From positions 9,392 through 73,391 of the forward strand of contig DATHVR010000030.1 in the NCBI GenBank assembly GCA_035461175.1: 64,000 nt of DNA. The letters are read 5' to 3'. The first letter of the stretch is position 1. Each line of letters starts with the position of its first letter. The notes below the pieces were generated by a model. That model did no database searches and had not been told where the DNA came from. It saw only the letters and a list, made by a program, of their open reading frames with translations. Positions 16,036 to 44,566 of this stretch are shown one piece after another. This DNA is from Acidimicrobiia bacterium. GTDB lineage: Bacteria; Actinomycetota; Acidimicrobiia; Spongiisociales; ZC4RG35. Made by a program: the position numbers and the translations under genes.

Positions 16036-17247
16036 GTGGCGGTGAACCTACCGGGCGACTTCCGGGTCCGGTCCCTGACCGGGGCGGTCTACGTCCCCTC
16101 GCTGCTCTTCGCCATCGGCCAAGGCGCCGCCATTCCGATGCTGCCGCTGCTCGCCCTCGATCTGGGGCTGTCGGTGCCGTTGGCCGGGGTGATTGTGGCT
16201 GCCCGAGCTTTCGGCACTCTGCTCTTCGATGTGCCCGCCGGCGTCCTGGTCGCCCGCCTGGGCGAGAAACCGACCATGCTGATCGGGACCGGGCTCCTGG
16301 TCGGGGCCGCCATTGGGGTGGGGGCAGGCCCTTCGCCTTGGATGCTGGCGGTGCTGGTCGTGGTGATGGGGGCGGCCTCTTCGATCTGGCACCTCGCCCG
16401 GCTCACGTATGCCGCCGAGGTCACCCCACCCGCCCACCGGGGACGGGTGATGTCGATGCTGGGTGGGTTGGGACGGATCGGGTCGGTGCTCGGGCCTCTC
16501 GCCGGCGGCGCCGCCGTCGAGTTCCTCGGTCTGGCGGCCGCCTTCTACCTCCAGGCCGCCTTCGCCGTGGTCGCCTTCCTGACTCTGGCCGTCCGCACCG
16601 AGGCGCTGGATCACGCCGTCGCAGTGCCGCCGCGACTGACCCGGCACCTGTTGCGCCACGTCGCAGGCGAGAAGCGTCTGATGTCGACCGTGGCCGTGGT
16701 GTCGGTGGTGATCCAGGTTTTGCGCTCCGCCCGGGAGGCGTATATCCCCCTGTGGGGAGATGCCATCGCGCTGTCGGCGGGCCAGATCGCCCTCGTCTTC
16801 GCAGTGATGTCGGCGGCGGAAGTCGCCACCTTCTACCCGGCCGGGGTCCTCAGTGACCGCCTGGGCAGGAAGTGGTCGGCGATCCCCTGCATGGCCCTGC
16901 TCTCGGTGGGCATCGCCCTGGTGCCGCTCACACAGTCCCTGGTCCCGCTGGTCGGAGCCGCCATCGTCATCGGGATCGGCAATGGCCTGGGAGCTGGAAT
17001 CCAGATGACGCTGGGGTCGGACCTCGCCCCGGCCGACGCCCGGGCTCCGTTCCTCGGCATGTGGCGGCTCGGCGCCGATGCCGGGGGAGTGGCCGGCCCT
17101 TCGATCATCGCCGGGGCGGCGTCGGCGGTTGGTCTCGCCTTCGCCGCCTTTCTCCTGACGGGGGTGGGAGCAGCCGGCATCGTCGTGATGGCCGCTTTCG
17201 TGCCCGAGACCCTCCAACAGAGGGCCCGGGGCGACCAGCCAGGCTAG
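16036..17247 (+). CDS. MFS transporter
   Basis: 403 aa with 12 TM helices and the MFS signature GEKPTMLIGTGL / DRLGRK. Confidence 0.85.
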   Translation: MAVNLPGDFRVRSLTGAVYVPSLLFAIGQGAAIPMLPLLALDLGLSVPLAGVIVAARAFGTLLFDVPAGVLVARLGEKPTMLIGTGLLVGAAIGVGAGPSPWMLAVLVVVMGAASSIWHLARLTYAAEVTPPAHRGRVMSMLGGLGRIGSVLGPLAGGAAVEFLGLAAAFYLQAAFAVVAFLTLAVRTEALDHAVAVPPRLTRHLLRHVAGEKRLMSTVAVVSVVIQVLRSAREAYIPLWGDAIALSAGQIALVFAVMSAAEVATFYPAGVLSDRLGRKWSAIPCMALLSVGIALVPLTQSLVPLVGAAIVIGIGNGLGAGIQMTLGSDLAPADARAPFLGMWRLGADAGGVAGPSIIAGAASAVGLAFAAFLLTGVGAAGIVVMAAFVPETLQQRARGDQPG

Positions 17248-17778
17248 GCGCGGTTGGCGTCGCGGATCCGGGACCTCTCGCCGGCGTCGATCCCGGCGGC
17301 CGCCAGTATCTCGGCCAGTACATCGGACTTGGCCTCGACGTATTCGCCGATGTCGGAAGTCCCGTTCCGCCAGGCCGAGTTTCAGTCGGCCATAACGGTC
17401 CCGCAGGTCGGGTCGGGAACGGAGCACCGCCCGCCCGAGATGATTGCGAAGGGCCAGGCTGTCGGCCACCGTGACGTAGACGTTGCGGCGCACCCCGTCG
17501 TCGGGCGGAGTCATTGCCTGTCTGTCCTCGATCCCCAGGTCTCCCAGGTGGCGGTAGCCCACCGCCTCCAGCGCCCGTATCGCCTCGGGCACCCGCTCGG
17601 CGGCGACGACGACATCGACGTCGATCACCGGTTTGGCGGCCAGCCCGGGGACCGAGGTGCTGCCGACGTGCTGGATCGCCAGGACCACGACGCCGTTCAG
17701 GGCGTCGCCGAGCTGAGCCCGCATCGCTTCGAACCGTTCTGCCCAGCCCGGGTCATTGGGAACCACCTCGATGCGCAT
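17244..17778 (-). pseudogene. GrpB family protein (UPF0157) with apparent 1-nt frameshift near 17355
   Basis: The N-terminal region (HVGSTSVPGLAAKPVIDV) lies in the frame of ORF 16048..17850. The canonical C-terminus (TSDIGEYVEAKSDVLAEILAAAG…RA*) lies in the +1 frame. The stop CTA at 17244-17246 overlaps the MFS stop TAG at 17245-17247. Confidence 0.55.
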
Positions 17779-17982
17779 CGGACGAGTCTGCCCGCTCTCC
17801 CGCCGTCCGACCAAAGCGTTTTGTGGGCCGGATATGGCATTTGGAGGCACAGTTCCGACCCATAGAACGGTCGCTGGTGAGAAAAATCTGGTGGAGGTGT
17901 CGATTTCGGCGACGTCCGTTCGTCTAGAAGGTGAGCGAGCACCCCGGTACCGTGCCGGGGGCTGACCAGAGAGGAGACGCTC

Positions 17983-18336
17983 ATGAGCCAGTACCTACTG
18001 TCGGTATGGGGTGACCCGGCCGAGCTGGAGCAGGTTCCGCCCGAAATGATGGAACAGGCATACGCCGACGTCGACAAGTTCAACACCAAGTTGCAGGACC
18101 AGGGGGCGTGGGTCTTCGCCGGTGGCCTCCACACCCCCGACACCGCCACGGTGGTCCGTAAGGGTGAGGACGGGGAGGTGCTGGTCACCGACGGCCCCTT
18201 CGCCGAGGCGAAAGAACAGATCGGCGGCTTCTGGATCATCGAGGCCGAAGACCTGGACGCCGCCCTGGCGTGGGCTCGCGAGGCGACCGTGGCCTGCCAG
18301 GCCCCGGTGGAGGTGCGCCCGTTCCAGGAAGAGTGA
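17983..18336 (+). CDS. YciI-like (DGPF domain) protein
   Basis: MSQYLLSVWGDP…GGFWIIEAEDLDAALAWA is the classic YCII-related domain sequence. Confidence 0.8.
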   Translation: MSQYLLSVWGDPAELEQVPPEMMEQAYADVDKFNTKLQDQGAWVFAGGLHTPDTATVVRKGEDGEVLVTDGPFAEAKEQIGGFWIIEAEDLDAALAWAREATVACQAPVEVRPFQEE

Positions 18337-18344
18337 ACTGAGGT

Positions 18345-19562
18345 ATGCCCGGCTTCGACGCGACCCAGATCGAAGCGGTTTTCCGGGAGGAGTCGGGACG
18401 GGCGGTGGCGATCCTGGCCCGCCGATGCGGCGACATATCCCTCGCCGAGGAGGCGGTCCAGGACGCCTTCGCCGAGGCCGTTGAGCGCTGGCCACGATCG
18501 GGAATCCCGCCCAGTCCGGCCGGATGGATCATCACCACGGCGCGCAACCGCGCCATCGACCGGATCCGGCGGGAATCCACCCGAGAGTCGCGTCAGGCCG
18601 AGGCGGCCCTCCTGTTGGGCCCAGAAGACGAAAGCGACTCCGGCCCGATGATCGACGATCGGCTTCGGCTGCTGTTCACGTGCTGCCACCCGGCGCTGTC
18701 TTCGGAGGCGCGGGTGGCCCTCACCCTGCGGCTCCTGGGAGGGCTGCAGACACCGGAGATCGCCCGGGCTTTCCTGGTCCCCGAGTCCACTATGGCCCAG
18801 CGCCTGGTGCGGGCGAAGAAGAAGATCCGGGCCGCCAACATCCCCTACCGGGTCCCGGACGAGGCCGAACTCCCCGACCGATTGGTGGCGGTCCTCGCCG
18901 TCGTCTACCTGATCTCCAACGAGGGCCACATCGCCACCTCCGGGGAGGAGCTCACCCGTGACGATCTCGCCGCCGAAGCGATTCGGCTGGGTCGGTTGCT
19001 GGTCGAGTTGATGCCCGACGAGCCGGAAGCGGTCGGTCTGCTGGCGCTGATGCTTCTGACCCAGGCCCGTCGTCCGGCGCGGGTAAGCGATGACGGCACT
19101 CTGGTGGCGCTGGCCGACCAGAAGCGATCGTTGTGGGACCGGAAGATGATCGCCGAGGCCCACGCCCTGGTCCGGGCCTGCCTCCGACGCAACCATCCCG
19201 GTCCGTATCAGATCCAGGCGGCCATCGCCGCCGTGCATGCCGACGCCCGCTCGGCCGGGGCGACCGATTGGGGGCAGATCGTGTCCCTCTACGACCAGCT
19301 GCTGGTATTCAGCGACTCGCCGGTGGTCAGGCTCAATCGCGCCGTGGCCGTGGCCGAGTTGGATGGCCCGGAGCCGGCCTTGGCCGCGCTCGACCCGCTC
19401 CCTCTCGATCGCTACCACCTCTACCACGCCACCAGGGCCTCCTTGCTCGAGCGATTGGGCCGCCAGCGGGAGGCCGCCGCGGCGTACTCGCGGGCGCTGG
19501 AGCTCACCACCAATCAGGCCGAGATCGACCATCTCGAGCAGAAACGAAGCCGGTTGGTCTAG
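18345..19562 (+). CDS. ECF-type RNA polymerase sigma-70 factor with long C-terminal extension (YciI-associated type)
   Basis: Sigma-70 regions 2 and 4 ([11 protein letters not shown]; [15 protein letters not shown]) are followed by an extension of about 230 aa. It starts 9 nt after the YciI-like gene. Confidence 0.85.
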
Positions 19563-20476
19563 CCCGACCGCGGCCGGGTCACGGCTCCCCGGGTCTGGAC
19601 CAGAAGGACTCCCAGCGATACCAGCACGATGCCGGAAATTTCGCCCGAGCCCAGCGGCTCGCGCAGAAAGATCCAGGCGAGAAGGGCGATCTGGATCAGC
19701 ATGGTGTTGTTGATGGCAGACGACTCCACAGCGGACAGATCGCGCAGGGAGTAGTTCCACATCGTGAAGGCCAGGGCAGTGTTGAACACCGCCAGCCATG
19801 CGATGATCAGGGCCGCCCGCCACGAGATCTCGGGGATGCCCTCCACCACCAGGCCGGTGACGATCAATGCCACGGCTCCGATCCCCATGCTCATCACGGT
19901 CACCACGGTCGGGGCCACGGTGGCCGTTCGATTGATCTGACGTCCCATCAGAGCGGCGGCGACGTTTGCCAGCAATCCGATCAGCGCCGCCACCATCCCC
20001 GCGGTCGTCGCTCCGAGATCGCCCGAGAAGTACAGCCAGGCTCCCGCCACCACGGCCAGCGCCCCGACCACCTGCCGGCCTGAGGGGTGCTCGCCCAGTG
20101 TCCTGGCGCCCAGACCGGCCACCAACAGCGGCGACAGGGACAAGACCAGGCTGGTGGTGGCGGCGGGCTGATTGTCGATGGCCACGAACTGGGCTCCCTG
20201 GGTGACCGCGTAGAAGACCAGACCCAACCCCCCGACCCGGGCCAGAGTCGACCGGTCGAGGCTGCGAATCGAACCTCGCGCCGCGGGTTTCGACGCCAGC
20301 CAGGCGGCGAGCACGACGGTGGCCAACCCGTAGCGGAGGGCGGCAAAGGTGAGCGGCTCCAGCGCCTCGTCGTCGAGGCCCCATCGGATCAGAACCCACG
20401 ACGAGCTCCAGAGGAAGGTGACGGCCAGGGCCGCAGTGAGGGCACGGCTGTGGGACGGGTTGATCCGATCGGGCAT
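19559..20476 (-). CDS. EamA/DMT family transporter
   Basis: 305 aa with 10 TM helices and duplicated EamA halves. Its stop overlaps the sigma-factor stop by 4 nt (convergent). Confidence 0.8.
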
Positions 20477-20655
20477 GATCTGCGTCCTCCACCGTCGCTG
20501 TCACCCGGGGGTCGTCTTGCTTTCCGGGCGTGCCTGGCCGCCGTAGATGCCGGGCCCGAGTGCTTCCGAAGACTATGCGGGCGAGCGGAAGAGTACGCTT
20601 CAGGCATGAACCTCCGCCTCACGTCGATTGTGTCCCTTCCATCAGGAAGGCTGTG

Positions 20656-20973
20656 ATGGAGGCACCGCTGGATCCGGAGCCGCAGCTGGAAGTGAGCTGG
20701 GAGGACGCGCCCGGGATCCGGAGGGTAAAGATCGCCGGCGAGATCGATCTGGTCTGTGTCGAGGAACTGGCGGCGGCACTCGAGGCCGACCGTTCCCGGC
20801 TGGTGGTCGACCTGACCGAAGTCTCGTTTCTCGATCTGACCGGTCTCCGCTGCCTGACCGACGCCGCCGCCGACTGCGAGGTGACGTTGATCCCGAGTTC
20901 GACGGTCCGGCGGCTGCTGGAAATCACCGATACGACCGGATACTTCGTGCTATCAGGGTTTGAAAAACCCTGA
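20656..20973 (+). CDS. STAS domain anti-sigma factor antagonist
   Basis: Trimmed to MEAPLDP (RBS aggaagg). The VDLTEVSFLDLTGLRCL STAS motif is present. Confidence 0.7.
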   Translation: MEAPLDPEPQLEVSWEDAPGIRRVKIAGEIDLVCVEELAAALEADRSRLVVDLTEVSFLDLTGLRCLTDAAADCEVTLIPSSTVRRLLEITDTTGYFVLSGFEKP

Positions 20974-20994
20974 TGCTGGGAAGCTGACACTCGA

Positions 20995-21369
20995 ATGCCC
21001 TCGTCGACCGCGCCAAATGCCTCAAGAGACTTTCCTCCCGAACCCCGATCCGCCCGCCATGTTCGGGCTTTTGTGAGGTCGACACTCACCGACGTTCCGG
21101 ACCTCGATGACATCGTCCTCGCCGCCTCGGAGCTGGCGGCCAACGTGATCCGGCACGCGAGGACCGACTTCACGGTGGAGATCCGCCTTCAATCCGATGG
21201 TGGAATCCGGCTGGAGGTGTCGGACGGTTCTTCGGTGCTGCCTGCGATCAAGGATCTGACCCAGTCTTACCGTGGGCTACGGATGGTCGAGTCGCTTTCG
21301 CGCGACTGGGGATACGAGGCCACCGACACCGGCAAGACGGTCTGGGTCGAGTTCAGCCCGCCGGACTGA
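20995..21369 (+). CDS. Anti-sigma regulatory factor (RsbW-like serine kinase, HATPase_c_2)
   Basis: ASELAANVIRHA is typical of RsbW/SpoIIAB-type kinases. Gene is adjacent to the STAS gene. Confidence 0.65.
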   Translation: MPSSTAPNASRDFPPEPRSARHVRAFVRSTLTDVPDLDDIVLAASELAANVIRHARTDFTVEIRLQSDGGIRLEVSDGSSVLPAIKDLTQSYRGLRMVESLSRDWGYEATDTGKTVWVEFSPPD

Positions 21370-21790
21370 TCGTCTCGGCGGAGTATCCGACCTCCTGAAG
21401 CACCCAGGTGTTGCCGTCGGGATCGACGATGTCGGCGAAGGATTCGTAGTTCCCGCGCTCGGGATGCGGGCCGGGCGCCCAGTCCGAGTCAGGTCCCATG
21501 TGTTTGATCTCGCCCACCTCCACCCCGCGGCTCACCAGCTCGGAGCGAGCTGCCTCGATGTCGCTCACCACCAGATACAGCCCCCGGTACGAGCCCGGCT
21601 GGGCGTCGGTTATCCCCACTCCGAAGGTGATCGAGCAGGAAGAACCGGGCGGCGTCAATTGGACGACGCGGAACGCATCGCCCGCCTGGTGGTCGACGTC
21701 GAGGTGGAACCCCATCTTTTCCTCATAGAACTGCTTGGCCCGGTCGACGTCGCTGACGGGGAGCAGGACCAGTTCGAGGCGGTATTCCAT
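21353..21790 (-). CDS. VOC family (glyoxalase/bleomycin resistance fold) protein
   Basis: MEYRLELVLLPVSDVDRAKQFYEE…GFHLD is a typical VOC N-terminus. Confidence 0.75.
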   Translation of the reverse strand: MEYRLELVLLPVSDVDRAKQFYEEKMGFHLDVDHQAGDAFRVVQLTPPGSSCSITFGVGITDAQPGSYRGLYLVVSDIEAARSELVSRGVEVGEIKHMGPDSDWAPGPHPERGNYESFADIVDPDGNTWVLQEVGYSAETISPAG

Positions 21791-21901
21791 TTCTTCTCCT
21801 TCTTCGACCAATCGTTACAGACCGGGTCTGGTCCCGGAACTCATCGGTACCAGCCATGTTGGCCCGTCCCGGCGAGCGCCGTCGGGTTAGGGTCGGTTTC
21901 C

Positions 21902-23425
21902 GTGGATCGCTTGCGGGTGGCCGAACTCTGCGCCTCGACCTCGTTGTTCACCGACCTGGGGACGGGACAGCCCCAGGAGCATGGGCTGGCCACCTGTCTC
22001 GTGGCGATGCGCCTGGCCGACGCAGTCGGAGTGGGAGTCGAGACCGCCCGGGCGACCTTCTACACCTCGCTACTTCGCTTCATCGGCTGCACAGCCGACG
22101 CTCACATGGCGGCCGAGACGGGCGGCGACGAGATCCGGCTCTTTGCCCGGGCTGCTCCCGTCTTCATGGGCTCGATGAGAGAAGAGATGGCGCGGATGCT
22201 GCCTCTGATGGCCGAGAGCGATTCGATCCCTCACCGTCTGAAGGCGTTGGTGGCCATGCTCGCCGACCCGGCTTCGAAGGATCGACTGCTCGAAGCCCAC
22301 TGCGAGGTGGCGACGCGACTGGCGACACGGATCGGGCTGGGCCGGGCGGTGATCGACTCGTTGGATGCGGCTTATGCCCGCTGGGATGGACGCGGGTTCC
22401 CGTCGGGACTGGCCGGGGAGGAAATCCCGGTTCCCATCCGGATCGCCATCGTCGCCCGCGACATCGAGCTGTGGGCGCGAGATGAGGGAGAAACCTCCGC
22501 CCGCCAGGTGTTGGAGCGCCGACGGGGGAGGGCCTACGCCCCCGAGGTGGTCGACGCCGCCCTGGAGACCGGGATCCATCATCTGCGCGCCCACGATGGG
22601 GCGCTGTGGGATCAGGTCCTGGCGCTGGAGCCGACGCCGTGGGAGACGCTGACCGGCCCCGAGATCGATCGCGGCCTGGAGGCGCTGGGCGACTTCGCCG
22701 AACTGAAGTCCCCGATGGTGGCCGGGCGCTGGCGGCGGGTGCGAGATCTGCTCGGCGCGCTTGACGACGAGTTCGCTCCCGGGGAGCGGCGGATCATGGA
22801 GCGAGCGGCGACCGTGTTCGACGTGGGGATAGTGGGCGTCCCGGTTCGCATCTGGGAGGCGGCCGAGCCCGGAACGGCGGGGTGGGAGCTGATCCGTCTC
22901 CATCCCCTGTGGACCCGTCGCGCTCTGGAGCACTGCACCGGGATGGAACCGGTGGCGGTGACGGCGGGACTCCACCACGAGCGCCAGGACGGCAGCGGCT
23001 ACCCGGGCGGGATCCGCGGTGACCTCGACCGGGTAGCGGGACGGCTGGCGGCAGCCGTCCTGTACGACGAACTGACCGGCGGGAGTCCCGGCAAGGAGCC
23101 CGCGTCGCCGGCGGAGGCGGCGGAGCAGATGAGCGAATTGGCCTCGGCGGGATGCCTGCCCACCGAGGCTGTGGCAAGAGTGCTGGCCGCGGCGGGGCAG
23201 GGTCACCAGATCGAGATCGATCGCCCGGCCGGCCTGACCGAGCGCGAGGTCGACGTGCTCCGTCTTCTCGCCAACGGGATGACCAACCGCCAGATCGCAA
23301 CCGCACTGGGTATCTCGGCGAAGACGGTCGGCACTCACGTCGAACACATCTACGCCAAGGCCGGTGTCCGGACGCGGGCGGCGGCCACCCTGTTCGCGAT
23401 CGAGGAGCGAGTGGTGGTCCGGTGA
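21902..23425 (+). CDS. LuxR-family transcriptional regulator with two HD (HD-GYP-like) phosphohydrolase-type domains
   Basis: The C-terminus is a LuxR/GerE HTH (LTEREVDVLRLLANGMTNRQIATALGISAKTVGTHVEHIYAKAG). Two HD-related repeats sit upstream (HHERQDGSGYPGG). The GTG/TTG start is uncertain. Confidence 0.65.
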   Translation: MDRLRVAELCASTSLFTDLGTGQPQEHGLATCLVAMRLADAVGVGVETARATFYTSLLRFIGCTADAHMAAETGGDEIRLFARAAPVFMGSMREEMARMLPLMAESDSIPHRLKALVAMLADPASKDRLLEAHCEVATRLATRIGLGRAVIDSLDAAYARWDGRGFPSGLAGEEIPVPIRIAIVARDIELWARDEGETSARQVLERRRGRAYAPEVVDAALETGIHHLRAHDGALWDQVLALEPTPWETLTGPEIDRGLEALGDFAELKSPMVAGRWRRVRDLLGALDDEFAPGERRIMERAATVFDVGIVGVPVRIWEAAEPGTAGWELIRLHPLWTRRALEHCTGMEPVAVTAGLHHERQDGSGYPGGIRGDLDRVAGRLAAAVLYDELTGGSPGKEPASPAEAAEQMSELASAGCLPTEAVARVLAAAGQGHQIEIDRPAGLTEREVDVLRLLANGMTNRQIATALGISAKTVGTHVEHIYAKAGVRTRAAATLFAIEERVVVR

Positions 23426-23452
23426 TCGGGTGAATGCCCGCTGGAATCCGGG

Positions 23453-23512
23453 TGAGGGCCGCGTTCTCGAGAGAGTTTTGTACCGCCCTGGTACAGCCGA
23501 ACCTCAGGTTCG
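23453..23512. repeat. Interspersed palindromic repeat, family B copy 1 (about 55 bp, MITE/REP-like)
   Basis: cgttctcgagagagttttgtaccgccctggtacagccgaacctcaggttcgg. Related copies lie at 39128-39245. It sits between convergent gene ends. Confidence 0.6.
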
Positions 23513-23515
23513 GAT

Positions 23516-24292
23516 TCAGACCAGGTCGATGAGGTCGGCGATCGAGTCGACGATCCGGCTGGGTTGGTAGGGGAAGCGGGCCACCTCCTCGGCCCGGGTC
23601 GAGCCGGTCAGGACCAGGAAGGTGCGCAGGCCCGCCTCGATCCCGGCGACGACGTCGGTGTCCATTCGGTCTCCCACCATGGCCGTCGTCTCCGAGTGGG
23701 CACCGATCCGGTTGAGGGCGCCGCGAAACATCATCGGGTTGGGCTTTCCGACGAAATACGGGTCCTGGCCGGTGGCGCGGGTGATCAGTGCCGCCACCGA
23801 GCCGGTGGCGGGGATCGGCCCTTCGGGGGAAGGTCCAGTGGCGTCGGGGTTGGTGGCGATGAACCGGGCCCCTTCCTCGATATGTCGGATCGCCTCGGTG
23901 ATCGCCTCGAACGAATAGGTGCGGGTCTCTCCCAGCACCACGAAGTCCGGTGTCTTGTCGGTCAGGGTGAAGCCCGCCTCGTGCAGGGCGGTGGTGAGTC
24001 CGGCTTCGCCGATCACGAAGGCCGACGCTCCCGGCATCTGGTCGGCCAGAAACTGGGCGGTGGCGAGAGCCGAGGTCCAGATGTGATCCTCGGACACCGT
24101 CAGGCCGGCGTATCCGAGTCGGGCCGACAGGTCGCGCTGGGTGAAGATGGAGTTGTTGGTGAGGATCAGGAAGGGCCGACCGCGTTCGGTGAGCCGGGTG
24201 AGGAACTCGGCGGCGCCGGGGATCGGGGTGCCCTCACGGACCAGGACTCCGTCCATGTCGGTCAGCCAGGTCTCGATGGGGGTCTCGTCCAC
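23516..24292 (-). CDS. HAD-IIA family hydrolase (NagD-like)
   Basis: LTDMDGVL…LILTNNS…GKPNP…VGDRMDTD are the HAD motifs I-IV. Confidence 0.85.
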   Translation of the reverse strand: MDETPIETWLTDMDGVLVREGTPIPGAAEFLTRLTERGRPFLILTNNSIFTQRDLSARLGYAGLTVSEDHIWTSALATAQFLADQMPGASAFVIGEAGLTTALHEAGFTLTDKTPDFVVLGETRTYSFEAITEAIRHIEEGARFIATNPDATGPSPEGPIPATGSVAALITRATGQDPYFVGKPNPMMFRGALNRIGAHSETTAMVGDRMDTDVVAGIEAGLRTFLVLTGSTRAEEVARFPYQPSRIVDSIADLIDLV

Positions 24293-26925: not shown

Positions 26926-28722
26926 ATGATCACGGTTGGGATCTCCCAGCTTCCTCCCGACGGCGTCTCCGACGCCGGTTTTCTCGACGATTTGGTCGAA
27001 CAGGGGTTCAACGCCCTGGAGCTTCCCTTCGTCACCGACTTTCCCTGGAAGGAGAAGCGGTGCGCCGAGTTCGGGAAGGTGGCGGCCGAACGCGGGATCC
27101 GGCTGTCCGTTCACGCCCCCTATTTCGCCACCCTGACACCCGAGGATGCCGAGCGTGGAGCCCAGTGCCTGGCGGCGCTGGAGCACACGATGAAGCTGGG
27201 GATGGCACTGGGGGCCCCGATCATCGTCGCCCACGGCGGCTCTACCCACGGTGAACCGGCCGAGGTGCTTTTAGACCGGATCTCGGAGCGGCTGGAACGG
27301 GTGGCCCCCAAGGTCGAGAATCTGGGGGTGGGATTGGGGCTGGAGACGGCGGGAAAGGAAGGGGCGTGGGGGACCCTGGGCGACATCGCCCTCGCCGCCG
27401 CCCGGTTTTCGTTCGTGCGTCCCGTGGTGGACTGGGCCCACCTCCATGCCGCCACCGGGGGCGGCCTCACCTCCCGGGAGGCTTTCGCCCAAGTCTTCGC
27501 CTTTTTGGGGTCGGAATTCCCGGGCTGGATAATCGACCCGCTCCACTGCCACTTCACCGACAATCTGGTCGGCCCCAAGGGAGAGGTGAAGCACCTCCCC
27601 TACGGGGACGGGACCCTGCGGGTGGGGCCGCTCGTGGAGGCGGCCCAGGAGGCGGGAACCAGCCTCAATCTGGTGTCGGAAGCGCGCGAGAGGGAGAGTC
27701 ACCAGGAGATCCTGGCCGAGATCCGTGCCACCGAGCAGAAGCGGGAGACGGCCGACACCTCCCGGCCGCTGGGATCGGGTCGGGTGGATTTCCCTGCTCC
27801 GATCCGGGCCGAGCGGGAAGCCGATCGCTACCGGCCCCGCACCGCCTCGCCGCTCACCCTCTCCAACCTCGATAAGCCGTTCTTCCCCGAGGGTTACACC
27901 AAGGGCGACCTGATCCAGTACTACGCCTCAGTAGCCGACGTGCTCCTTCCCCACCTCGCCGGTCGCCCGCTCTCCATGTCCCGCTACCCCGACGGGATCG
28001 GCGGCCCCCAGTTCTATGAGAAGCGGGCTCCCGGCCACCAACCCGACTGGATGCCCACCACTCCGGTTCCCTCCGACTCCCAGGGGGGTCAGATCGAGTT
28101 CATGCTGGCCGATCGGCGTGAGGCGCTGATGTGGTTCGCCAACATGGGCTGTGTCGAGGTCCATCCCTTCCATTCCCGGGCGGGGTCGCTCGAGACCCCC
28201 GACTACGCCATCTTCGACCTCGACCCCGCCGAGGGCGCCGAATGGGAGCAGGTGGTGGCGGGTGCTCACCTTATCCATGTGGCGCTGGGTCAACTGGGGA
28301 TGGTCGGGGTGCCGAAGCTGTCCGGAAGCAGGGGAATCCACGTCTACGTGCCGATCGAGGCCCGCTTCGGCTACGAGCGGGTGCGGCGGTTCGTGGGCGA
28401 GGTGGGCCGCTACCTGGTGGCGGCCAATCCCGACGACCTGACGATGAAATGGGACAAGCCGAAGCGGCGGGGGAAGGTGTTCATCGACCACAACCGCAAC
28501 GCCTCGGGCCAGACGATCGCCTCCGTGTACTCGGTGCGTCCCCGACCCGGTGCACCGGTGTCAGTCCCGATGCGCTGGGACGAGGTGGCGGCCATGCGCA
28601 ACGGCGACATCACCATCGCCAACCTGTGGGAGCGCCTCCAGCGCCATGGAGACCTCTTCGCCCCGATCCTGGGTCCCAGGCACCCCCTGGAGCCCGCCGA
28701 GGAGGCGCTGGGTCTGTCATGA
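26926..28722 (+). CDS. Fusion protein: Endonuclease IV (Nfo, AP endonuclease family 2) TIM-barrel domain + LigD-type NHEJ primase-polymerase (PolDom) domain
   Basis: Residues 1-280 carry the Nfo metal-site pattern (HAPYF, HGGS, LETAG, VDWAHLHA, HCHFTDN, LVSE). Residues about 300-598 carry LigD Pol motifs (LSNLDKPFFPEGYTKGDLIQYY, FDLDP, SGSRGIHVYV, KVFIDHNRNASGQTIASVYSVRP). It is a single uninterrupted ORF. Confidence 0.8.
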   Translation: MITVGISQLPPDGVSDAGFLDDLVEQGFNALELPFVTDFPWKEKRCAEFGKVAAERGIRLSVHAPYFATLTPEDAERGAQCLAALEHTMKLGMALGAPIIVAHGGSTHGEPAEVLLDRISERLERVAPKVENLGVGLGLETAGKEGAWGTLGDIALAAARFSFVRPVVDWAHLHAATGGGLTSREAFAQVFAFLGSEFPGWIIDPLHCHFTDNLVGPKGEVKHLPYGDGTLRVGPLVEAAQEAGTSLNLVSEARERESHQEILAEIRATEQKRETADTSRPLGSGRVDFPAPIRAEREADRYRPRTASPLTLSNLDKPFFPEGYTKGDLIQYYASVADVLLPHLAGRPLSMSRYPDGIGGPQFYEKRAPGHQPDWMPTTPVPSDSQGGQIEFMLADRREALMWFANMGCVEVHPFHSRAGSLETPDYAIFDLDPAEGAEWEQVVAGAHLIHVALGQLGMVGVPKLSGSRGIHVYVPIEARFGYERVRRFVGEVGRYLVAANPDDLTMKWDKPKRRGKVFIDHNRNASGQTIASVYSVRPRPGAPVSVPMRWDEVAAMRNGDITIANLWERLQRHGDLFAPILGPRHPLEPAEEALGLS

Positions 28723-33220: not shown

Positions 33221-34117
33221 TCAGGCCATTCCGAAGCGGGCTTCGAAGCGCTCGGCCTTGGTCATGATCTCGCCCGGGAGGGCCATCAGCTTCTCCTGGA
33301 GCTCGGAGGCGGTGGCGTCGAGGCCATCGAGCTCGGGGATGCCCCATTGCCTGAGCAGGGGCATGACGATCGAGTCGTGGTGGATGCGCAGGTTGTACAC
33401 CCCCGCCTTGGCGATGTCGATCGAACGGCGCAGGAAGCCCGGGATCCCCACCCCGGGCATCTGGAAGTTCTTGAAGGTGCGATAGATCCCCTCCAGGGCG
33501 ATAGTGGGCTGGAGTTCGATCATCGACTGCATCACGCCCTTGTAGAACATGAAGTGGTGGTTCTCGTCGGCGGCGATGTTGCGCATCAACTCGAAGGCGG
33601 TCTCGTCCTCGGTGATCTTGCCCGTGTTGCGATGTGATACCCGGGTGGCGAGTTCCTGGGCCGAGGTGTAGGCGAACAACTCGGCGACGTGACTGAAGTC
33701 GGGCTCGTAGCCGGCGGTCATCGTGGCCATGCGGTCGTCCTCGAGTTCGACCGGGTCACAGTTGCGGCTGGTGAGCAGGTAGGACCGGATGGCGATGGCG
33801 TGCTGGCCCTCCTCGGCGGTCCACAGCCCGTTCCACTCCTTCCACACCGAGCCCTCGGGGAGGTTGGTGTCGAGGATCTGGTGGTAGTAGGGGAGGTTGT
33901 CCTCGGTGAGCAGGTTGAGGACGAGGGAGGTGCGAGCCCGTTCGTTGATGGTGGCCTGAGACTCCTCCCACGGCTCCTTGACGAAGTTCCTCCCCATCTC
34001 CCAGGGGATGAAGTCGTGGAAGTACCAATGCTTGCGCCGTTCCCGATGCTCGGCGAGAAGACGGGCGACGGTGGGCTCGAGGGCCTCGACGAGTTCGAGA
34101 TGTTGGTTGGCGGCCAT
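33221..34117 (-). CDS. Acyl-ACP desaturase (DesA1/DesA2-like soluble di-iron desaturase)
   Basis: ORF 33221..34864 trimmed to MAANQHLEL (SD gaggagg). Di-iron motifs EENRH-like (TEDNLPYYH…AEEGQHAIAIR, AADENHHF). Confidence 0.85.
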   Translation of the reverse strand: MAANQHLELVEALEPTVARLLAEHRERRKHWYFHDFIPWEMGRNFVKEPWEESQATINERARTSLVLNLLTEDNLPYYHQILDTNLPEGSVWKEWNGLWTAEEGQHAIAIRSYLLTSRNCDPVELEDDRMATMTAGYEPDFSHVAELFAYTSAQELATRVSHRNTGKITEDETAFELMRNIAADENHHFMFYKGVMQSMIELQPTIALEGIYRTFKNFQMPGVGIPGFLRRSIDIAKAGVYNLRIHHDSIVMPLLRQWGIPELDGLDATASELQEKLMALPGEIMTKAERFEARFGMA

Positions 34118-34219
34118 GGGGCCTCCTCGTGTGGGAGATGTTGTCCCTAAGACCCTGCCCCACTTCCAATGGTTACATTCATGTCTTCGCGAGTCGTCAA
34201 GTTTCGATACGGTAAGCGG

Positions 34220-35227
34220 ATGGATCTCTACGCCCGGGTCAACATTCTCGACGGACGCGCCGTGCGGTTGCCGCGCGGCGACGTCCACGATGCCATCGCT
34301 CTCCACAACGATCCCTTCGAGCGGGTCATGAACTGGTTCCAGCAAGGAGCCGACCACGTCCACGTCGTCGATCTGGATGCCGCCGCCTTCGGTGACTACA
34401 AGAATCGGCCCCTGATCGACCGGATCCTGGAGGAATCCACCGGCGAAGTACAGCTGGCCGGCGGCATCCGCTCCCACGTCGAGGCGGCCCGTCTCCTGGA
34501 CCAGGGGGCGTGGCGGATCGTGATGGGAACCGCGGCCATCGAAGACCAGAACATGGTGTGGGACTTGTGCCGCGACTTCCCCGGGCGGATCGTCGTCTCC
34601 CTCGACGTCCGCCCCGACGAGGAGGTGGCGACCCGGGGGTGGACCAAGAACTCGGGCCGATACCTGGAGGAGGTCCTGATCGAGATGTCCTCCGCCGGGG
34701 CCGCCGCCTTCTTCGTCAGCGAGGTGGGCCGCGACGTCATCACGGAGACCACCAACATCCAGATCCTGGCCGAGGCCCTGGCCACCGTCGAAGAGCCGAT
34801 CGTGGCCGCCGGGGGAGTCCGCGACCTCGAGGACCTGCGCCGCCTGCTCTCGCTCTCGATCCACGAGCGCCAGGTCGACGGCGTGGTGGTGGGCCGCGAG
34901 GTTACCCAGGGCCGGTTCACACTGAGCGAGGCCAAGGAAATCATTGCCGCCGGCCCGCCCCGCGTCCCGATCGAAATCTCCGAGCCACGCCAGGAGACCC
35001 GCTCCACTCTGCCGCCGCTGATGGCCGATGCCGCTGCGGCCTACATGCGGGTGGCCGAGATCTCAGAACAGGCGGCCGGCCAGGCCCGAACCGCCGCCCA
35101 CCACATGCAGGAGGGCGACGGAAGCACCGGGGCCGCCCATGCCTTCGCCGTCCAGGGCCATCTGGCCTCCGCCCTGGAGCAGATCGAGAACCTGGCCAAG
35201 GCGCACGCCAAGGGGACCCAGCCCTGA
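34220..35227 (+). CDS. HisA/HisF-family TIM-barrel protein with about 100-aa Ala-rich C-terminal extension
   Basis: MDLYARVNILDGRAVRL…VHVVDLDAA is HisA-like. It is not in a his operon. Confidence 0.6.
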   Translation: MDLYARVNILDGRAVRLPRGDVHDAIALHNDPFERVMNWFQQGADHVHVVDLDAAAFGDYKNRPLIDRILEESTGEVQLAGGIRSHVEAARLLDQGAWRIVMGTAAIEDQNMVWDLCRDFPGRIVVSLDVRPDEEVATRGWTKNSGRYLEEVLIEMSSAGAAAFFVSEVGRDVITETTNIQILAEALATVEEPIVAAGGVRDLEDLRRLLSLSIHERQVDGVVVGREVTQGRFTLSEAKEIIAAGPPRVPIEISEPRQETRSTLPPLMADAAAAYMRVAEISEQAAGQARTAAHHMQEGDGSTGAAHAFAVQGHLASALEQIENLAKAHAKGTQP

Positions 35228-42551: not shown

Positions 42552-43217
42552 ATGATGCTCGAACCCATGCCAGATATCTTGACCAACGCGGGCGCGCCCC
42601 TTATCGGGTACCTGTTGGGAGCGGTGCCGTTCGCCCTCCTCATCGGGAGGATGCTCGGTATCGACCTGCGGACCGAGGGGACCGGCAACGTCGGAGCCGG
42701 CAACCTCACCAAACTGGCCGGGCTCCCTTACGGGGCGGCGGCGGCGATCCTGGATGGACTCAAGGGTCTGCTGCCGGTCCTGGTGGCCCGCCGCCTTGGC
42801 CTGGCCGACGGCGTGGCGGCCGCCGGTGGTGTGGCCGCCGTGATCGGCCACAACTGGTCGATCTACCTGCGCTCCCGCTCCGGGCGGGGGATGGCGACCT
42901 CGGTCGGAGTCCTGGTTGGGCTGGCGCCTTCGCTGATGGTCTGGACCGGGCTGTGGGCCGTGATCGGCTGGTGGATCGGAGGCGGTCTGGGCGGTTTCGT
43001 CGGCTGGGCGTTGCTTGGTCCGGTGGCGGTTATGGCGGGATATCCCCGGCCGGTGGTCATGACCGCCTTCACGCTCTCCCTGATCGTGCTCCTCCGCCGC
43101 GCTCAGGGGCAGGACGGAGACTCGTTCGAGTGGCGGGATGTGGCGGAGCGGGTGGTCTGGGACACCGATCGACCGGAGACGCTGGAGGACGGAAGAGCGG
43201 AAAGACCGGTCCGGTGA
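42552..43217 (+). CDS. plsY: Glycerol-3-phosphate acyltransferase PlsY
   Basis: GTGNVGAGN motif; about 5 TM helices. Confidence 0.85.
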   Translation: MMLEPMPDILTNAGAPLIGYLLGAVPFALLIGRMLGIDLRTEGTGNVGAGNLTKLAGLPYGAAAAILDGLKGLLPVLVARRLGLADGVAAAGGVAAVIGHNWSIYLRSRSGRGMATSVGVLVGLAPSLMVWTGLWAVIGWWIGGGLGGFVGWALLGPVAVMAGYPRPVVMTAFTLSLIVLLRRAQGQDGDSFEWRDVAERVVWDTDRPETLEDGRAERPVR

Positions 43218-44112: not shown

Positions 44113-44566
44113 TAGCGTCGAGCCGATGAAAGCCAATTTCGACCTTCACGACCAAGACGGCAATCGGGTTACTTCCGACGACTACGCCGGAAAGCGCCTG
44201 ATCATGTTCTTCTATCCCAAGGCGATGACGGCTGGATGTACCACCGAGGCCTGCGACTTCCGCGATTCCTACGAGGAGTTGCTCGAGGCCGGTTATGAGA
44301 TCGTCGGGGTCAGCCCCGACGCCCCCGAGGACAACGCCGAGTTCCGCAAGAAGGAAGGGCTGCCCTTCCCGCTCCTGTCCGACCAGGACCATGCCTTGGC
44401 CGACCAGCTCGGCGCCTGGGGGACGAAGAAGCTCTACGGCAAGGAGGTCGAGGGTCTGATCCGCTCTACCTTCGTGATCGGCCCCGAGGGCGAGGTCGAA
44501 GAGGTATATCGCAACGTCAAGGCCACCGGCCACGTCGAACGGCTCAAGAAGGACCTGCTGACCTGA
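44113..44566 (+). CDS. bcp: Thiol peroxidase Bcp (peroxiredoxin), possibly expressed as a fusion with the upstream membrane domain
   Basis: FFYPKAMTAGCTTEAC is the peroxidatic-Cys motif. GGAG lies 14 nt upstream of the ATG. Confidence 0.8.

What the first reader, a model, noticed from the sequence alone, without database searches (positions are those of the whole stretch)
17983..23425. Regulatory island: YciI-like + extended ECF sigma factor next to a STAS / RsbW-like partner-switching pair and an HD-domain LuxR regulator
A YciI (DGPF) gene sits 9 nt upstream of a 405-aa ECF sigma factor with a long C-terminal extension. That pairing is conserved in the literature but its mechanism is poorly understood. 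Directly downstream, after a convergent DMT transporter, lie an anti-sigma antagonist and a putative anti-sigma kinase. Then comes a LuxR regulator carrying two HD/HD-GYP-like domains, possibly sensing a nucleotide second messenger. No obvious cognate anti-sigma factor gene is present.
Basis: partly seen in the sequence, partly recalled or inferred. Interest (0 to 1): 0.5.

Follow-up and report, generated by a model that had tools for sequence, protein, structure and literature searches.

The report
Three unrelated regulators, not one island
The region holds a textbook YciI + ECF42 sigma-factor operon with its own conserved promoter, sitting by shared ancestry next to two independent regulatory modules, so it is mostly ordinary rather than a coordinated regulatory island.

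Summary
A minus-strand glyoxalase gene (21353-21811) was missed. The LuxR regulator is 507 aa (21902-23425), not 717 aa.

The YciI gene and the 405-aa sigma factor form a typical ECF42 operon: sigma2 + sigma4 + DUF6596/TPR extension, and no anti-sigma gene. YciI lies directly upstream in 79 of 80 related loci. A promoter, TGTCGA-N16-TCGT, precedes the operon in at least 68 of 79 loci (0.004 expected per region) and resembles mapped ECF42 promoters of S. meliloti.

The "island" does not hold. Relatives of the RsbW-like protein always keep a STAS partner, but in four independent contexts they have no ECF42, glyoxalase or LuxR neighbour. The LuxR family's conserved neighbour is an alpha/beta-hydrolase that this window lacks. 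The arrangement recurs only in close relatives that share more than 12 syntenic genes.

The STAS/RsbW pair lacks the phospho-serine and the ATP-binding G1 box. The LuxR protein is a V-cGAP3-like tandem HD-GYP fusion that has lost four of eight metal ligands, so it is probably a sensor rather than an enzyme.

Verdict: a new member of known kinds. Interest is low to moderate.

The parts
17898..17924 (+). ECF42-type promoter of the yciI-sigma operon: -35 TGTCGA (17898-17903), 16-nt spacer, -10 TCGTC (17920-17924).
   Evidence: It is the only exact TGTCGR-N17-CGTC match in the window. The same TGTCGA-N16-TCGT lies directly upstream of YciI in 61 of 79 orthologous loci, against 0.0044 expected per region, with a spacer of exactly 16 nt in 59 of 61. 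In 7 further loci it lies upstream of a RibD_C-YciI-sigma operon. The geometry matches the S. meliloti RpoE10 (ECF42) promoters, TGTCGG-N17-CGTC (PMC6180224 Table 1).
17942..17960 (+). GC-rich 8-bp hairpin in the predicted 5' leader, between the promoter and the RBS (GAGGAG, about 17971-17976).
   Evidence: RNAfold gives z = -2.25 for the window's leader. Comparable hairpins with different stem sequences occur in a third to a half of orthologous leaders, but the set as a whole is weak (median z -0.68). No Rfam match. This is a minor feature of uncertain function.
17983..18336 (+). YCII-related (DGPF) protein, 117 aa; first gene of the operon.
   Evidence: Pfam YCII, E 1.2e-16. The DGPF motif is present (VTDGPFAE). 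Best solved relative is PA1349 (1s7i), E 5e-17. A homolog lies immediately upstream of the sigma, on the same strand and 0-94 nt away, in 79 of 80 loci.
18345..19562 (+). ECF42-type sigma factor, 405 aa: sigma2 (13-78), sigma4 (110-161), C-terminal extension of about 240 aa (DUF6596 179-278, then TPR-like helices to 404).
   Evidence: Pfam and NCBIfam. 63-70% identity across Actinomycetota, Chloroflexota and Dormibacterota. All 8000 scored homologs have E <= 1e-20, and the 120 listed share the same architecture. AF2 model: pLDDT 85.6, pTM 0.83, all-alpha. Fold hits are TPR solenoids plus ECF cores (SigL, SigK, SigG1), and no solved structure covers the whole protein.
19559..20476 (-). EamA/DMT transporter, convergent with the sigma gene. 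It is a bystander, not part of any of the regulatory modules.
   Evidence: Pfam EamA, E 2.1e-34. No homolog near the sigma in any of the 80 loci. It is present only in the close syntenic relatives L092 and L099.
20656..20973 (+). STAS-domain protein (105 aa), partner of the RsbW-like protein. The canonical phospho-serine is replaced by Leu (FLDLTG).
   Evidence: Pfam STAS, 26.2 bits. Best solved relatives are the mycobacterial anti-sigma-F antagonist RsfB (8ih8) and 4qtp, where the Ser aligns with Leu. Leu occupies this position in all 7 members of the subfamily, whereas L073 and the reference proteins have Ser. A STAS gene lies directly upstream of the RsbW-like gene in 4 of 4 independent contexts.
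20995..21369 (+). Small RsbW-like HATPase_c_2 protein (124 aa). The N-box is present; the G1 box (DxGxG) is replaced by a conserved EVSDGSSxxPA and the ATP lid is short.
   Evidence: Pfam HATPase_c_2, E 1.8e-12. It defines a compact subfamily of 75 clusters (43-94% identical to the query, most 50-68%; mostly about 115-130 aa); every member that carries a source name is from an Acidimicrobiia or Actinomycetota MAG. Motif analysis.
21353..21811 (-). Glyoxalase/VOC-family protein (152 aa). Convergent with the RsbW-like gene (17-nt overlap) and divergent from the LuxR gene.
   Evidence: GC3 0.82. Pfam Glyoxalase, E 4.8e-11. 68-73% identical orthologs sit in the same position in L082-87 and L099. 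No ECF42-type promoter lies upstream of it.
21888..21893 (+). Conserved TAGGGT, a -10-like hexamer 8 nt upstream of the GTG start of the LuxR gene. This is the usual geometry of a leaderless mRNA, so the LuxR gene is probably its own transcription unit.
   Evidence: The hexamer is TAGGGT in 5 of the 6 aligned orthologous intergenic regions and TATGGT in L082; the start region is also conserved. That it is a leaderless-mRNA promoter is inferred from general actinobacterial promoter geometry, not tested here.
21902..23425 (+). Tandem HD-GYP + LuxR one-component regulator (507 aa): degenerate N-terminal pseudo-HD-GYP (about 6-240), C-terminal HD-GYP-like domain (about 255-415) that keeps HHERQDGSGYP but has lost four of eight metal ligands, and a GerE/LuxR HTH (445-501).
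   Evidence: Pfam HD_5 x2 + GerE. V-cGAP3 (5z7c) matches over residues 6-413, E 4e-32. AF2 model: pLDDT 87.7, top fold hit 5z7c with E 3.8e-13 and TM 0.72. Ligand table in PmGH numbering: E185->M, H189->R, H221->F, D305->V, K225->I; D222, H250, H276, H277 and GYP are kept (PMC4159591).

Best explanation
The region is a juxtaposition of three functionally independent regulatory modules on an ordinary chromosomal backbone of an Acidimicrobiia bacterium.

1. yciI-sigma is a canonical ECF42 operon. The sigma factor has only sigma2 and sigma4, plus a TPR-like C-terminal extension of about 240 aa that packs with the core. According to the ECF42 literature, this extension is required for activity and takes the place of an anti-sigma factor. 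The holoenzyme most likely recognises the TGTCGA-N16-TCGT promoter in front of its own operon. That would give positive autoregulation and co-expression of the YCII/DGPF protein, which is the group's hallmark neighbour. The recognition step is inferred.

2. STAS + RsbW-like is a self-contained two-gene pair found in Acidimicrobiia. It resembles an anti-sigma/antagonist pair but lacks the phospho-serine and the ATP-binding G1 box. It probably works by phosphorylation-independent binding, and its target is unknown.

3. The 507-aa protein is a one-component regulator. A V-cGAP3-like tandem HD-GYP module with a crippled metal site probably binds a cyclic (di)nucleotide rather than hydrolysing it, and controls its LuxR DNA-binding domain.

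The three lie side by side only because the whole neighbourhood is inherited in this lineage.
For: Shown for the ECF42 operon:
- ECF42 architecture.
- YciI immediately upstream in 79 of 80 loci.
- The promoter directly upstream of YciI in 61 of 79 loci against 0.0044 expected, with a fixed 16-nt spacer. In 7 more loci it heads a RibD_C-YciI-sigma operon, and 12 of 13 extra motif hits precede a well-formed ORF.
- The motif resembles experimentally mapped RpoE10 promoters.
- No anti-sigma gene nearby.

Shown for independence of the modules:
- Across 1.49 Mb of ECF42 loci, only 2 of 80 have an adjacent stand-alone RsbW-like gene, 0 of 80 have EamA, and 0 of 80 have the HD-GYP part.
- Four independent contexts of the RsbW-like subfamily (59-62% identity) all keep STAS. 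None has YciI/ECF42, glyoxalase or HD-LuxR within 7 kb.
- The conserved neighbour of the HD_5-GerE family is a downstream alpha/beta-hydrolase, seen in Acidimicrobiia, Nocardia and others.
- The window's arrangement recurs only in close relatives (HAD protein 85-92% identical) that share more than 12 syntenic genes, including unrelated metabolic ones. Even there, L081 lacks the RsbW-glyoxalase block, and L082/83 and L099 lack STAS.
- Five transcription units alternate in orientation. No ECF42 promoter precedes any gene other than yciI.

Residue evidence.
Against: - The sigma and RsbW-like genes are close in the window's own lineage (L083, L092, L099).
- Two more distant loci place an RsbW-like gene directly upstream of YciI-sigma on the same strand. 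L003 has the RsbW-like gene alone. L073 has a full SpoIIE-STAS-HATPase_c_2 cassette and no ECF42 promoter before YciI.
- Regulation in trans between the modules cannot be excluded from sequence alone.
- Autoregulation is inferred. In S. meliloti, overexpressing RpoE10 did not raise expression of its own operon (PMC6180224).
- The ligand of the HD-GYP module and the target of the RsbW-like protein are unknown.
Confidence: 0.8

Rival explanations
1. The RsbW-like protein, with or without its STAS partner, is a lineage-specific anti-sigma factor for the ECF42 sigma factor. That would make partner switching the missing regulatory input for ECF42 in Acidimicrobiia.
For: - The RsbW-like gene lies about 1.4 kb downstream of the sigma in the window, L083, L092 and L099.
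- L073 has SpoIIE(PP2C)-STAS-HATPase_c_2-YCII-ECF42 on one strand, laid out like rsbU-rsbV-rsbW-sigB, with no ECF42 promoter before YCII.
- L003 has an RsbW-like gene directly upstream of YciI.
- The ECF42 literature expects a protein partner for the TPR extension that has not yet been identified (PMC8999054).
Against: - 78 of 80 ECF42 loci have no adjacent RsbW-like gene.
- 4 of 4 independent contexts of the window's own RsbW-like subfamily lack ECF42 within 7 kb.
- The L003 and L073 proteins are only about 35% identical to the window's, and L073's STAS has the canonical Ser, so they belong to a different subfamily.
- In the window the genes are separate transcription units with a convergent transporter between them.
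- RsbW-type anti-sigma factors are known to act on group-3 sigma factors (established knowledge). The ECF reclassification paper reports no RsbW/STAS partner for any ECF group.
Confidence: 0.06
2. The RsbW-like, glyoxalase and HD-LuxR genes form one functional unit. The LuxR regulator would control the divergently transcribed glyoxalase gene, and possibly the STAS/RsbW pair, in response to a nucleotide signal, independently of ECF42.
For: - The block HATPase_c_2 -> <- Glyoxalase HD_5-GerE -> recurs in L082-87, L092 and L099.
- Divergent regulator-target gene pairs are common.
- L085-87 carry a second glyoxalase gene downstream of the LuxR gene.
Against: - All of these loci come from close relatives (HAD protein 85-92% identical).
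- L081 is equally close and lacks the RsbW-glyoxalase block.
- Family members at about 55% identity have other neighbours and a conserved alpha/beta-hydrolase instead.
- No inverted-repeat operator is present in the 90-nt intergenic region.
Confidence: 0.2
3. The HD-LuxR protein is still an active phosphodiesterase: a "trigger PDE" like PdeL that both degrades and senses a cyclic dinucleotide.
For: - D222, H250, H276, H277 and the full HHExxDGxGYP motif are retained.
- RpfG is active despite having Phe at the H189 position (PMC4159591).
- Most of the wider family keeps H189 and H221 (33 and 43 of 53, respectively) and may be active.
Against: - The His of the HD dyad (H221) is Phe, and H221A essentially abolished PmGH activity (PMC4159591).
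- Four of eight ligands and the catalytic Lys are lost together in the window's protein; the H189, H221, K225 and D305 losses recur throughout its clade of close relatives (P0001-P0007), whereas E185 is lost only in the window protein and P0001.
- DvhD shows that a ligand-deficient HD-GYP domain binds c-di-GMP but does not hydrolyse it (PMC13090378).
Confidence: 0.15

Closest known systems
ECF42 group of ECF sigma factors (S. venezuelae Sven_0747/4377/7131, S. meliloti RpoE10, P. putida ECF-10)
   Same: - Only sigma2 + sigma4, plus a C-terminal TPR-containing extension of roughly 200 aa.
- A YCII-related gene next door.
- No anti-sigma gene.
- A TGTCG-type -35 element and a CGT-type -10 element at the same spacing (PMC8999054, PMC6180224).
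   Different: Nothing material. The actinobacterial -10 consensus found here is GTTCGT(G/A)TAG rather than the rhizobial CGTC, and the window itself has TCGTC. Assignment by the ECF Hub group HMM could not be run.
V-cGAP3 of Vibrio cholerae (PDB 5z7c); HD-[HD-GYP] phosphodiesterases
   Same: [quoted passage not shown]
   Different: The window protein adds a C-terminal LuxR HTH. It has also lost the equivalents of E185, H189, H221, D305 and K225 in the C-terminal domain, so it is probably not an enzyme.
PdeL (YahA) of E. coli: LuxR-HTH + EAL "trigger phosphodiesterase"
   Same: A cyclic-di-nucleotide phosphodiesterase-type domain fused to a LuxR-type DNA-binding domain in one polypeptide. [quoted passage not shown]
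   Different: The domain type differs (HD-GYP instead of EAL), and so does the order (HTH at the C-terminus instead of the N-terminus). In this clade the catalytic site is degenerate. No DNA target or ligand is known.
DvhD of Desulfovibrio vulgaris: degenerate HD-GYP c-di-GMP receptor
   Same: An HD-GYP fold that lacks metal ligands and acts as a nucleotide-binding switch. It is a structural match to the model (9rbz, TM 0.73-0.74) (PMC13090378).
   Different: DvhD has lost both HD and HH (SQ and MN), is a membrane protein, and signals to the periplasm. The window protein keeps D, H and HH, is soluble, and carries a DNA-binding output.
RsbV/RsbW and SpoIIAA/SpoIIAB partner switching; mycobacterial UsfX with its antagonists RsfA/RsfB
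   Same: A STAS gene immediately upstream of a small HATPase_c_2 gene. The best solved relative of the STAS protein is RsfB (8ih8).
   Different: The canonical phospho-Ser is Leu. The G1 box is absent. No PP2C phosphatase and no group-3 sigma gene is nearby. From my own knowledge, not tested here: RsfA of M. tuberculosis is a precedent for an antagonist that is not controlled by phosphorylation.

Membership tests
ECF42 sigma factors | Only sigma2 and sigma4 regions, with no sigma1 or sigma3. | tested here: met
   Pfam Sigma70_r2 (13-78) and Sigma70_r4_2 (110-161) only. TIGR02937 sigma70-ECF scores 52.9 bits against a cut-off of 42.9.
ECF42 sigma factors | A C-terminal extension of about 200 aa containing TPR-like repeats. 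| tested here: met
   The extension is about 240 aa. DUF6596 hits at E 1.2e-35. The TPR_2 and TPR_14 hits fall below their cut-offs. The AF2 model is all-alpha, and its top fold hits are TPR solenoids, e.g. TTC0263 (TM 0.66 normalised to the target, rmsd 4.1 A).
ECF42 sigma factors | A YCII-related (DGPF) gene conserved in the neighbourhood. | tested here: met
   A YCII gene lies 8 nt upstream. The same arrangement is found in 79 of 80 related loci.
ECF42 sigma factors | No cognate anti-sigma factor gene. | tested here: met
   The neighbours are MFS, GrpB, YCII and EamA. Pfam found no anti-sigma domain within about +/-15 kb. An unrecognisable small anti-sigma factor cannot be formally excluded.
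ECF42 sigma factors | A group-specific target promoter (TGTCG-type -35, CGTC-type -10). | tested here: met
   TGTCGA-N17-CGTC at 17898-17924. It is conserved in at least 68 of 79 loci and matches the geometry of the RpoE10 promoters. Recognition by this sigma factor is inferred.
ECF42 sigma factors | Assignment by the ECF Hub/ECFfinder group HMM, or by phylogeny of the core regions. | not testable with these tools
   No ECF group HMM library is available here.
Phospho-dependent partner-switching module (RsbV/RsbW type) | A STAS antagonist with the conserved phosphorylatable Ser. | tested here: not met
   The STAS fold is present, but the Ser aligns with Leu (FLDLTG) against RsfB, 4qtp and TM1442. 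This holds in all 7 subfamily members.
Phospho-dependent partner-switching module (RsbV/RsbW type) | A GHKL kinase with an N-box and with G1 (DxGxG) and G2 ATP-binding boxes. | tested here: not met
   The N-box (SELAANVIRHA) and a G2-like RGLRMV are present. The G1 box is replaced by the conserved EVSDGSSxxPA and the lid is shortened.
Phospho-dependent partner-switching module (RsbV/RsbW type) | An associated PP2C phosphatase and a cognate group-3 sigma gene. | tested here: not met
   tblastn finds neither in the 64-kb window. Neither is next to the pair in L093-L098. They could be encoded elsewhere in the genome.
Catalytically active HD-GYP phosphodiesterases | The eight metal ligands (PmGH E185, H189, H221, D222, H250, H276, H277, D305). 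| tested here: not met
   The C-terminal domain reads M, R, F, D, H, H, H, V at these positions, so four of eight are lost, including the His of the HD dyad. K225 is Ile (PMC4159591). The N-terminal domain is degenerate in the whole family.
Catalytically active HD-GYP phosphodiesterases | The HHExxDGxGYP motif. | tested here: met
   HHERQDGSGYP at 358-368 in the C-terminal domain.
HD-[HD-GYP] / V-cGAP3-like tandem architecture | A degenerate N-terminal HD-type domain followed by an HD-GYP domain in one chain. | tested here: met
   Aligned to 5z7c over residues 6-413 (E 4e-32). Foldseek gives E 3.8e-13 and TM 0.72 over 447 columns. The defining paper (PMC8177754) could not be read.
LuxR/GerE-type DNA-binding regulators | A C-terminal four-helix GerE HTH domain. 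| tested here: met
   Pfam GerE, E 8.1e-18. Fold matches to the DNA-binding domains of LiaR, VraR, NarL and DosR have TM 0.8-0.9.

The most novel reading that the evidence does not exclude
In some Acidimicrobiia, the small RsbW-like protein (with or without its STAS partner) is the long-sought protein partner that controls ECF42 activity, for example by binding the TPR extension. That would be a partner-switching input to an ECF sigma factor, as the SpoIIE-STAS-HATPase_c_2-YCII-ECF42 cassette of L073 hints.

A second, more probable but less striking reading (about 0.3): the large HD-[HD-GYP]-LuxR family are cyclic-dinucleotide-responsive transcription factors, an HD-GYP counterpart of the trigger phosphodiesterase PdeL, and the window's clade has become a pure receptor.
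Probability: 0.06. Interest if true: 0.75.

Novelty: new member of a known kind. Interest (0 to 1): 0.28.

Why it matters
The result mainly clears up an over-interpretation. Gene proximity here reflects inherited synteny, not a shared circuit.

Three by-products have some value:
1. A quantified actinobacterial ECF42 promoter consensus, TGTCGAT-N15-GTTCGT(G/A)TAG followed by GGTGAGAG. It heads the operon in at least 68 of 79 loci across several phyla and could be used to predict ECF42 regulons.
2. A compact Acidimicrobiia subfamily of STAS/RsbW-like pairs that lacks both the phospho-site and the G1 box. This points to phosphorylation-independent partner binding.
3. A widespread, uncharacterised tandem HD-GYP + LuxR family (2130 clusters at E <= 1e-10 among the 8000 candidates scored). 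One clade of it appears to have changed from enzyme to sensor, which makes it a tractable candidate for a new class of nucleotide-responsive transcription factor.

None of this brings the open question about ECF42, namely what YciI and the TPR extension sense, closer to an answer.

Tried and rejected
- **Strict rhizobial promoter pattern.** TGTCG-N(17-19)-CGTC matched only 2 of 79 orthologous upstream regions. I dropped it in favour of an unbiased k-mer analysis, which showed that the -10 element is CGT(G/A) in Actinomycetota.
- **Motif counts across the whole window.** They equal chance (1 found, 1.02 expected; 6 found, 4.63 expected). The motif's significance therefore rests on its position and its conservation, not on its count.
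- **ECF42 promoter in front of other genes.** I searched upstream of the glyoxalase, STAS/RsbW and LuxR genes, allowing 1 mismatch, and found none.
- **Metagenome scan with the RsbW-like protein.** It returned one near-identical locus only. I replaced it with a homology search plus context look-ups.
- **Rfam search of the leader.** Only chance-level hits. The leader hairpin is not statistically convincing across loci.
- **Operator search.** No inverted repeat in the glyoxalase/LuxR intergenic region.
- **Search for a PP2C phosphatase, a second STAS/RsbW pair or a second ECF sigma in the window.** None found.
- **Papers that could not be read.** The primary ECF42 paper (PMC6182237) and the HD-[HD-GYP] paper (PMC8177754) are not held. 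Statements about them come from reviews that cite them.
- **Mobile island.** Rejected because GC content and skew are flat and the flanking genes are syntenic backbone.

Full report
**1. What is in the sequence**

The window has about 67% G+C and flat composition. I separated real genes from the many spurious ORFs by third-position GC and named them with Pfam and NCBIfam.

| Coordinates | Strand | Gene product |
|---|---|---|
| 16036-17247 | + | MFS transporter |
| 17254-17778 | - | GrpB (frameshifted) |
| 17983-18336 | + | YCII/DGPF protein |
| 18345-19562 | + | Sigma factor, 405 aa: Sigma70_r2, Sigma70_r4_2, DUF6596, weak TPR |
| 19559-20476 | - | EamA transporter |
| 20656-20973 | + | STAS protein |
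| 20995-21369 | + | HATPase_c_2 (RsbW-like) protein |
| 21353-21811 | - | Glyoxalase/VOC protein |
| 21902-23425 | + | HD_5 x2 + GerE (LuxR) protein |
| 23516-24292 | - | HAD hydrolase |

- The glyoxalase gene was missed.
- The LuxR gene was over-extended by about 210 codons that are antisense to the glyoxalase gene. Homologs are 502-516 aa, and the GTG start at 21902 is conserved.
- The YciI-sigma spacer is 8 nt.

The exact sigma sequence is on record from an NCBI Acidimicrobiia MAG (P0196).

**2. The YciI-sigma pair is a canonical ECF42 operon**

The ECF42 literature describes the group as follows: a TPR-rich C-terminal extension of about 200 residues that is essential for activity, no anti-sigma factor, and a conserved YCII-related neighbour of unknown role (PMC8999054; PMC7826278; PMC6180224). 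The window's protein fits each point.

- A scan of one genome per species gave 80 loci, 63-70% identical, across Actinomycetota and into Chloroflexota, Dormibacterota and Acidobacteriota.
- A YciI homolog lies immediately upstream on the same strand in 79 of the 80 loci, 0-94 nt away.
- An AlphaFold2 model (pLDDT 85.6, pTM 0.83) is a single compact all-alpha unit. Its fold matches are TPR solenoids plus ECF cores. No solved structure covers the full protein.

**3. A conserved promoter**

Upstream of yciI the window reads TGTCGA-N17-CGTC (17898-17924). The three mapped RpoE10 (ECF42) promoters of S. meliloti read TGTCGG-N17-CGTC (PMC6180224 Table 1).

- Counted over the whole window, the motif is no more frequent than chance, so I tested conservation instead.
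- The rhizobial pattern fitted only 2 of 79 orthologous regions.
- An unbiased k-mer analysis found TGTCGA in 67 of 80 upstream regions (79 loci plus the window), followed by GTTCGT(G/A)TAG.
- TGTCGA-N16-TCGT occurs directly upstream of yciI in 61 of 79 loci, against 0.0044 expected per region. The spacer is exactly 16 nt in 59 of those 61.
- Seven of the loci without it carry the same motif in front of a RibD_C-like gene that precedes yciI. Twelve of the 13 further motif hits precede a well-formed ORF.

That the sigma factor recognises this promoter, and so regulates itself, is inferred and not shown. In S. meliloti, overexpressing RpoE10 did not induce its own operon.

No other gene in the window has such a promoter, including the glyoxalase, STAS/RsbW and LuxR genes.

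**4. The "island" is not a functional unit**

*Seen from the sigma factor.* Across the 80 loci (1.49 Mb):
- EamA homologs: 0.
- The HD-GYP part of the LuxR protein: 0.
- Glyoxalase homologs: 6.
- In a profile search, stand-alone RsbW-like genes are adjacent to the operon in only 2 loci (L003, L073), and STAS in 1. The other HATPase_c_2 hits are mostly large multidomain proteins (three are PP2C fusions), plus one stand-alone gene (L040), all 1-8 kb away.

*Seen from the RsbW-like protein.* It defines a compact subfamily of 75 clusters, 43-94% identical to the query (most 50-68%) and mostly about 115-130 aa; every member with a source name is from an Acidimicrobiia or Actinomycetota MAG. In four independent contexts (L093-95, L096, L097, L098):
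- A STAS gene is always immediately upstream.
- There is no YciI/ECF42, glyoxalase or HD-LuxR gene within 7 kb.
- The other neighbours differ every time.

*Seen from the LuxR protein.* The recurrent neighbour of the family is a downstream alpha/beta-hydrolase, found in Acidimicrobiia, Nocardia and others. The window lacks it.

*Where the window's arrangement does recur.* It is seen only in L082-87, L092 and L099. These are close relatives: their HAD protein is 85-92% identical. L099 shares more than 12 syntenic genes with the window, including CDF, PNPOx, DUF1801, MFS and GrpB. Even within this group, L081 lacks the RsbW-glyoxalase block, and L082/83 and L099 lack STAS. L088 (56% identity) shares only the right-hand backbone: HAD, YkuD, LigD, SIR2.

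The five transcription units alternate in orientation. The LuxR gene has its own conserved TAGGGT 8 nt before its start codon.

**5. The STAS/RsbW pair**

- Against the solved antagonists RsfB (8ih8), 4qtp and TM1442, the canonical phospho-serine aligns with Leu. This holds in all seven subfamily members, whereas L073's STAS has Ser.
- The RsbW-like proteins keep the N-box. In place of the DxGxG G1 box they have a strictly conserved EVSDGSSxxPA, and the ATP lid is short.
- No PP2C phosphatase or group-3 sigma gene is in the window.

I infer a phosphorylation-independent binding pair whose target is unknown.

**6. The HD-LuxR protein**

- The best solved relative is the 3'3'-cGAMP phosphodiesterase V-cGAP3 (5z7c), aligned across both HD-type domains: E 4e-32 by sequence, and E 3.8e-13 with TM 0.72 by fold.
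- The N-terminal domain is degenerate throughout the family (LLRFxGC, YARWDGRG).
- In the C-terminal domain, using the eight metal ligands defined for PmGH (PMC4159591), the window protein reads:

| PmGH position | E185 | H189 | H221 | D222 | H250 | H276 | H277 | D305 |
|---|---|---|---|---|---|---|---|---|
| Window protein | M | R | F | D | H | H | H | V |

- K225 is Ile, and the HHExxDGxGYP motif is intact.
- H221A and H189A abolished PmGH activity, although the active enzyme RpfG has Phe at the H189 position.
- The loss of H189 and H221 is confined to the window's clade, P0001-P0007. In the wider family, 43 of 53 keep H221.
- DvhD shows that a ligand-deficient HD-GYP domain can be a pure c-di-GMP receptor (PMC13090378). 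PdeL shows that a phosphodiesterase domain fused to a LuxR HTH can be a transcription factor, and the review on it suggests HD-GYP proteins might do the same (PMC5052742).
- An "HD-GYP-LuxR" architecture has so far been mentioned only as unique to one Streptomyces species (PMC6205966).

I infer a nucleotide-sensing one-component regulator. Its ligand and its DNA target are unknown.

**7. What remains open**

L073 carries SpoIIE(PP2C)-STAS-HATPase_c_2-YCII-ECF42 on one strand, with no ECF42 promoter before YCII. L003 has an RsbW-like gene directly upstream of YciI. These are 2 of 80 loci, and their RsbW-like proteins are only about 35% identical to the window's, so they do not rescue the island hypothesis. 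They do keep a low-probability reading alive: partner switching may feed into ECF42 in some lineages.

**8. Verdict**

The core finding is a new member of a known kind (ECF42 with its YCII partner). The neighbouring regulators are independent modules that sit together by descent. Interest is low to moderate (0.28). The most useful products are the promoter consensus and the two under-studied protein subfamilies.

Noticed in passing
window 17254-17778 (-): The GrpB-family gene is disrupted by a frameshift. Its conserved C-terminal stretch (DIGEYVEAKSDVLAEILAAAGI...) continues in another frame, while the original frame runs on for about 600 codons antisense to the MFS gene. The orthologs in L099 and L100 are intact (179-180 aa). 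It is either a pseudogene or a sequencing error.
   Followed up: partly
window 17925-17960; orthologous leaders in L001-L080: Conservation continues 3' of the -10 element (TAGnnGGTGAGAG). An 8-bp GC hairpin (17942-17960) follows. Similar hairpins with different stem sequences occur in a third to a half of orthologous leaders. The feature is statistically weak overall (median z -0.68; window z -2.25) and has no Rfam match.
   Followed up: partly
L004, L023, L027, L030, L043, L044, L071 (about 1 kb upstream of the sigma); L007, L008, L039, L068: The ECF42-type promoter also precedes other genes. It precedes a RibD_C-like gene placed before YciI, giving a three-gene operon. It also precedes extra YCII genes (L008, L068), a VOC/PhnB-like gene (L007) and an SMP-30-like gene just downstream of the sigma (L039). 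These are candidate regulon members.
   Followed up: partly
L073 6819-11242: A complete partner-switching cassette (SpoIIE/PP2C phosphatase, a STAS protein with the canonical Ser, and HATPase_c_2) lies directly upstream of YCII-ECF42 on the same strand. There is no ECF42-type promoter in front of YCII. L003 has an RsbW-like gene alone in the same position.
   Followed up: partly
L082/L083 (upstream of 1559/1955) and L099 7857-7923: In these close relatives the RsbW-like gene has no detectable STAS partner. In L099 it follows EamA after only 66 nt. So the pair is breaking up within the window's own lineage.
   Followed up: partly
L081-L084, L088-L091, downstream of the HD_5-GerE gene; window 23426-23515: The HD_5-GerE family is almost always followed by an alpha/beta-hydrolase gene of about 278 aa on the same strand. 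The window and L085-87 lack it; L085-87 have an ArsR-type HTH gene plus a second glyoxalase gene instead. The closest clade (P0001-P0007) has also lost the catalytic His residues, although P0002 and P0003 in that clade (L081, L082-84) keep the hydrolase, so the two losses do not coincide strictly.
   Followed up: partly
window 26926-28722 (+); L088 14679-16478: A 598-aa fusion of an AP_endonuc_2 (xylose-isomerase-like TIM barrel) domain with a LigD primase-polymerase domain. It is conserved in a related Acidimicrobiia MAG.
   Followed up: no
window 42953-44566 (+): A 537-aa fusion of an LPG_synthase_TM membrane domain with a C-terminal AhpC/TSA peroxiredoxin domain.
   Followed up: no
window 33221-34864 (-): A FA_desaturase_2 (acyl-ACP desaturase-like) domain preceded by an N-terminal region of about 250 aa with no Pfam match.
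   Followed up: no
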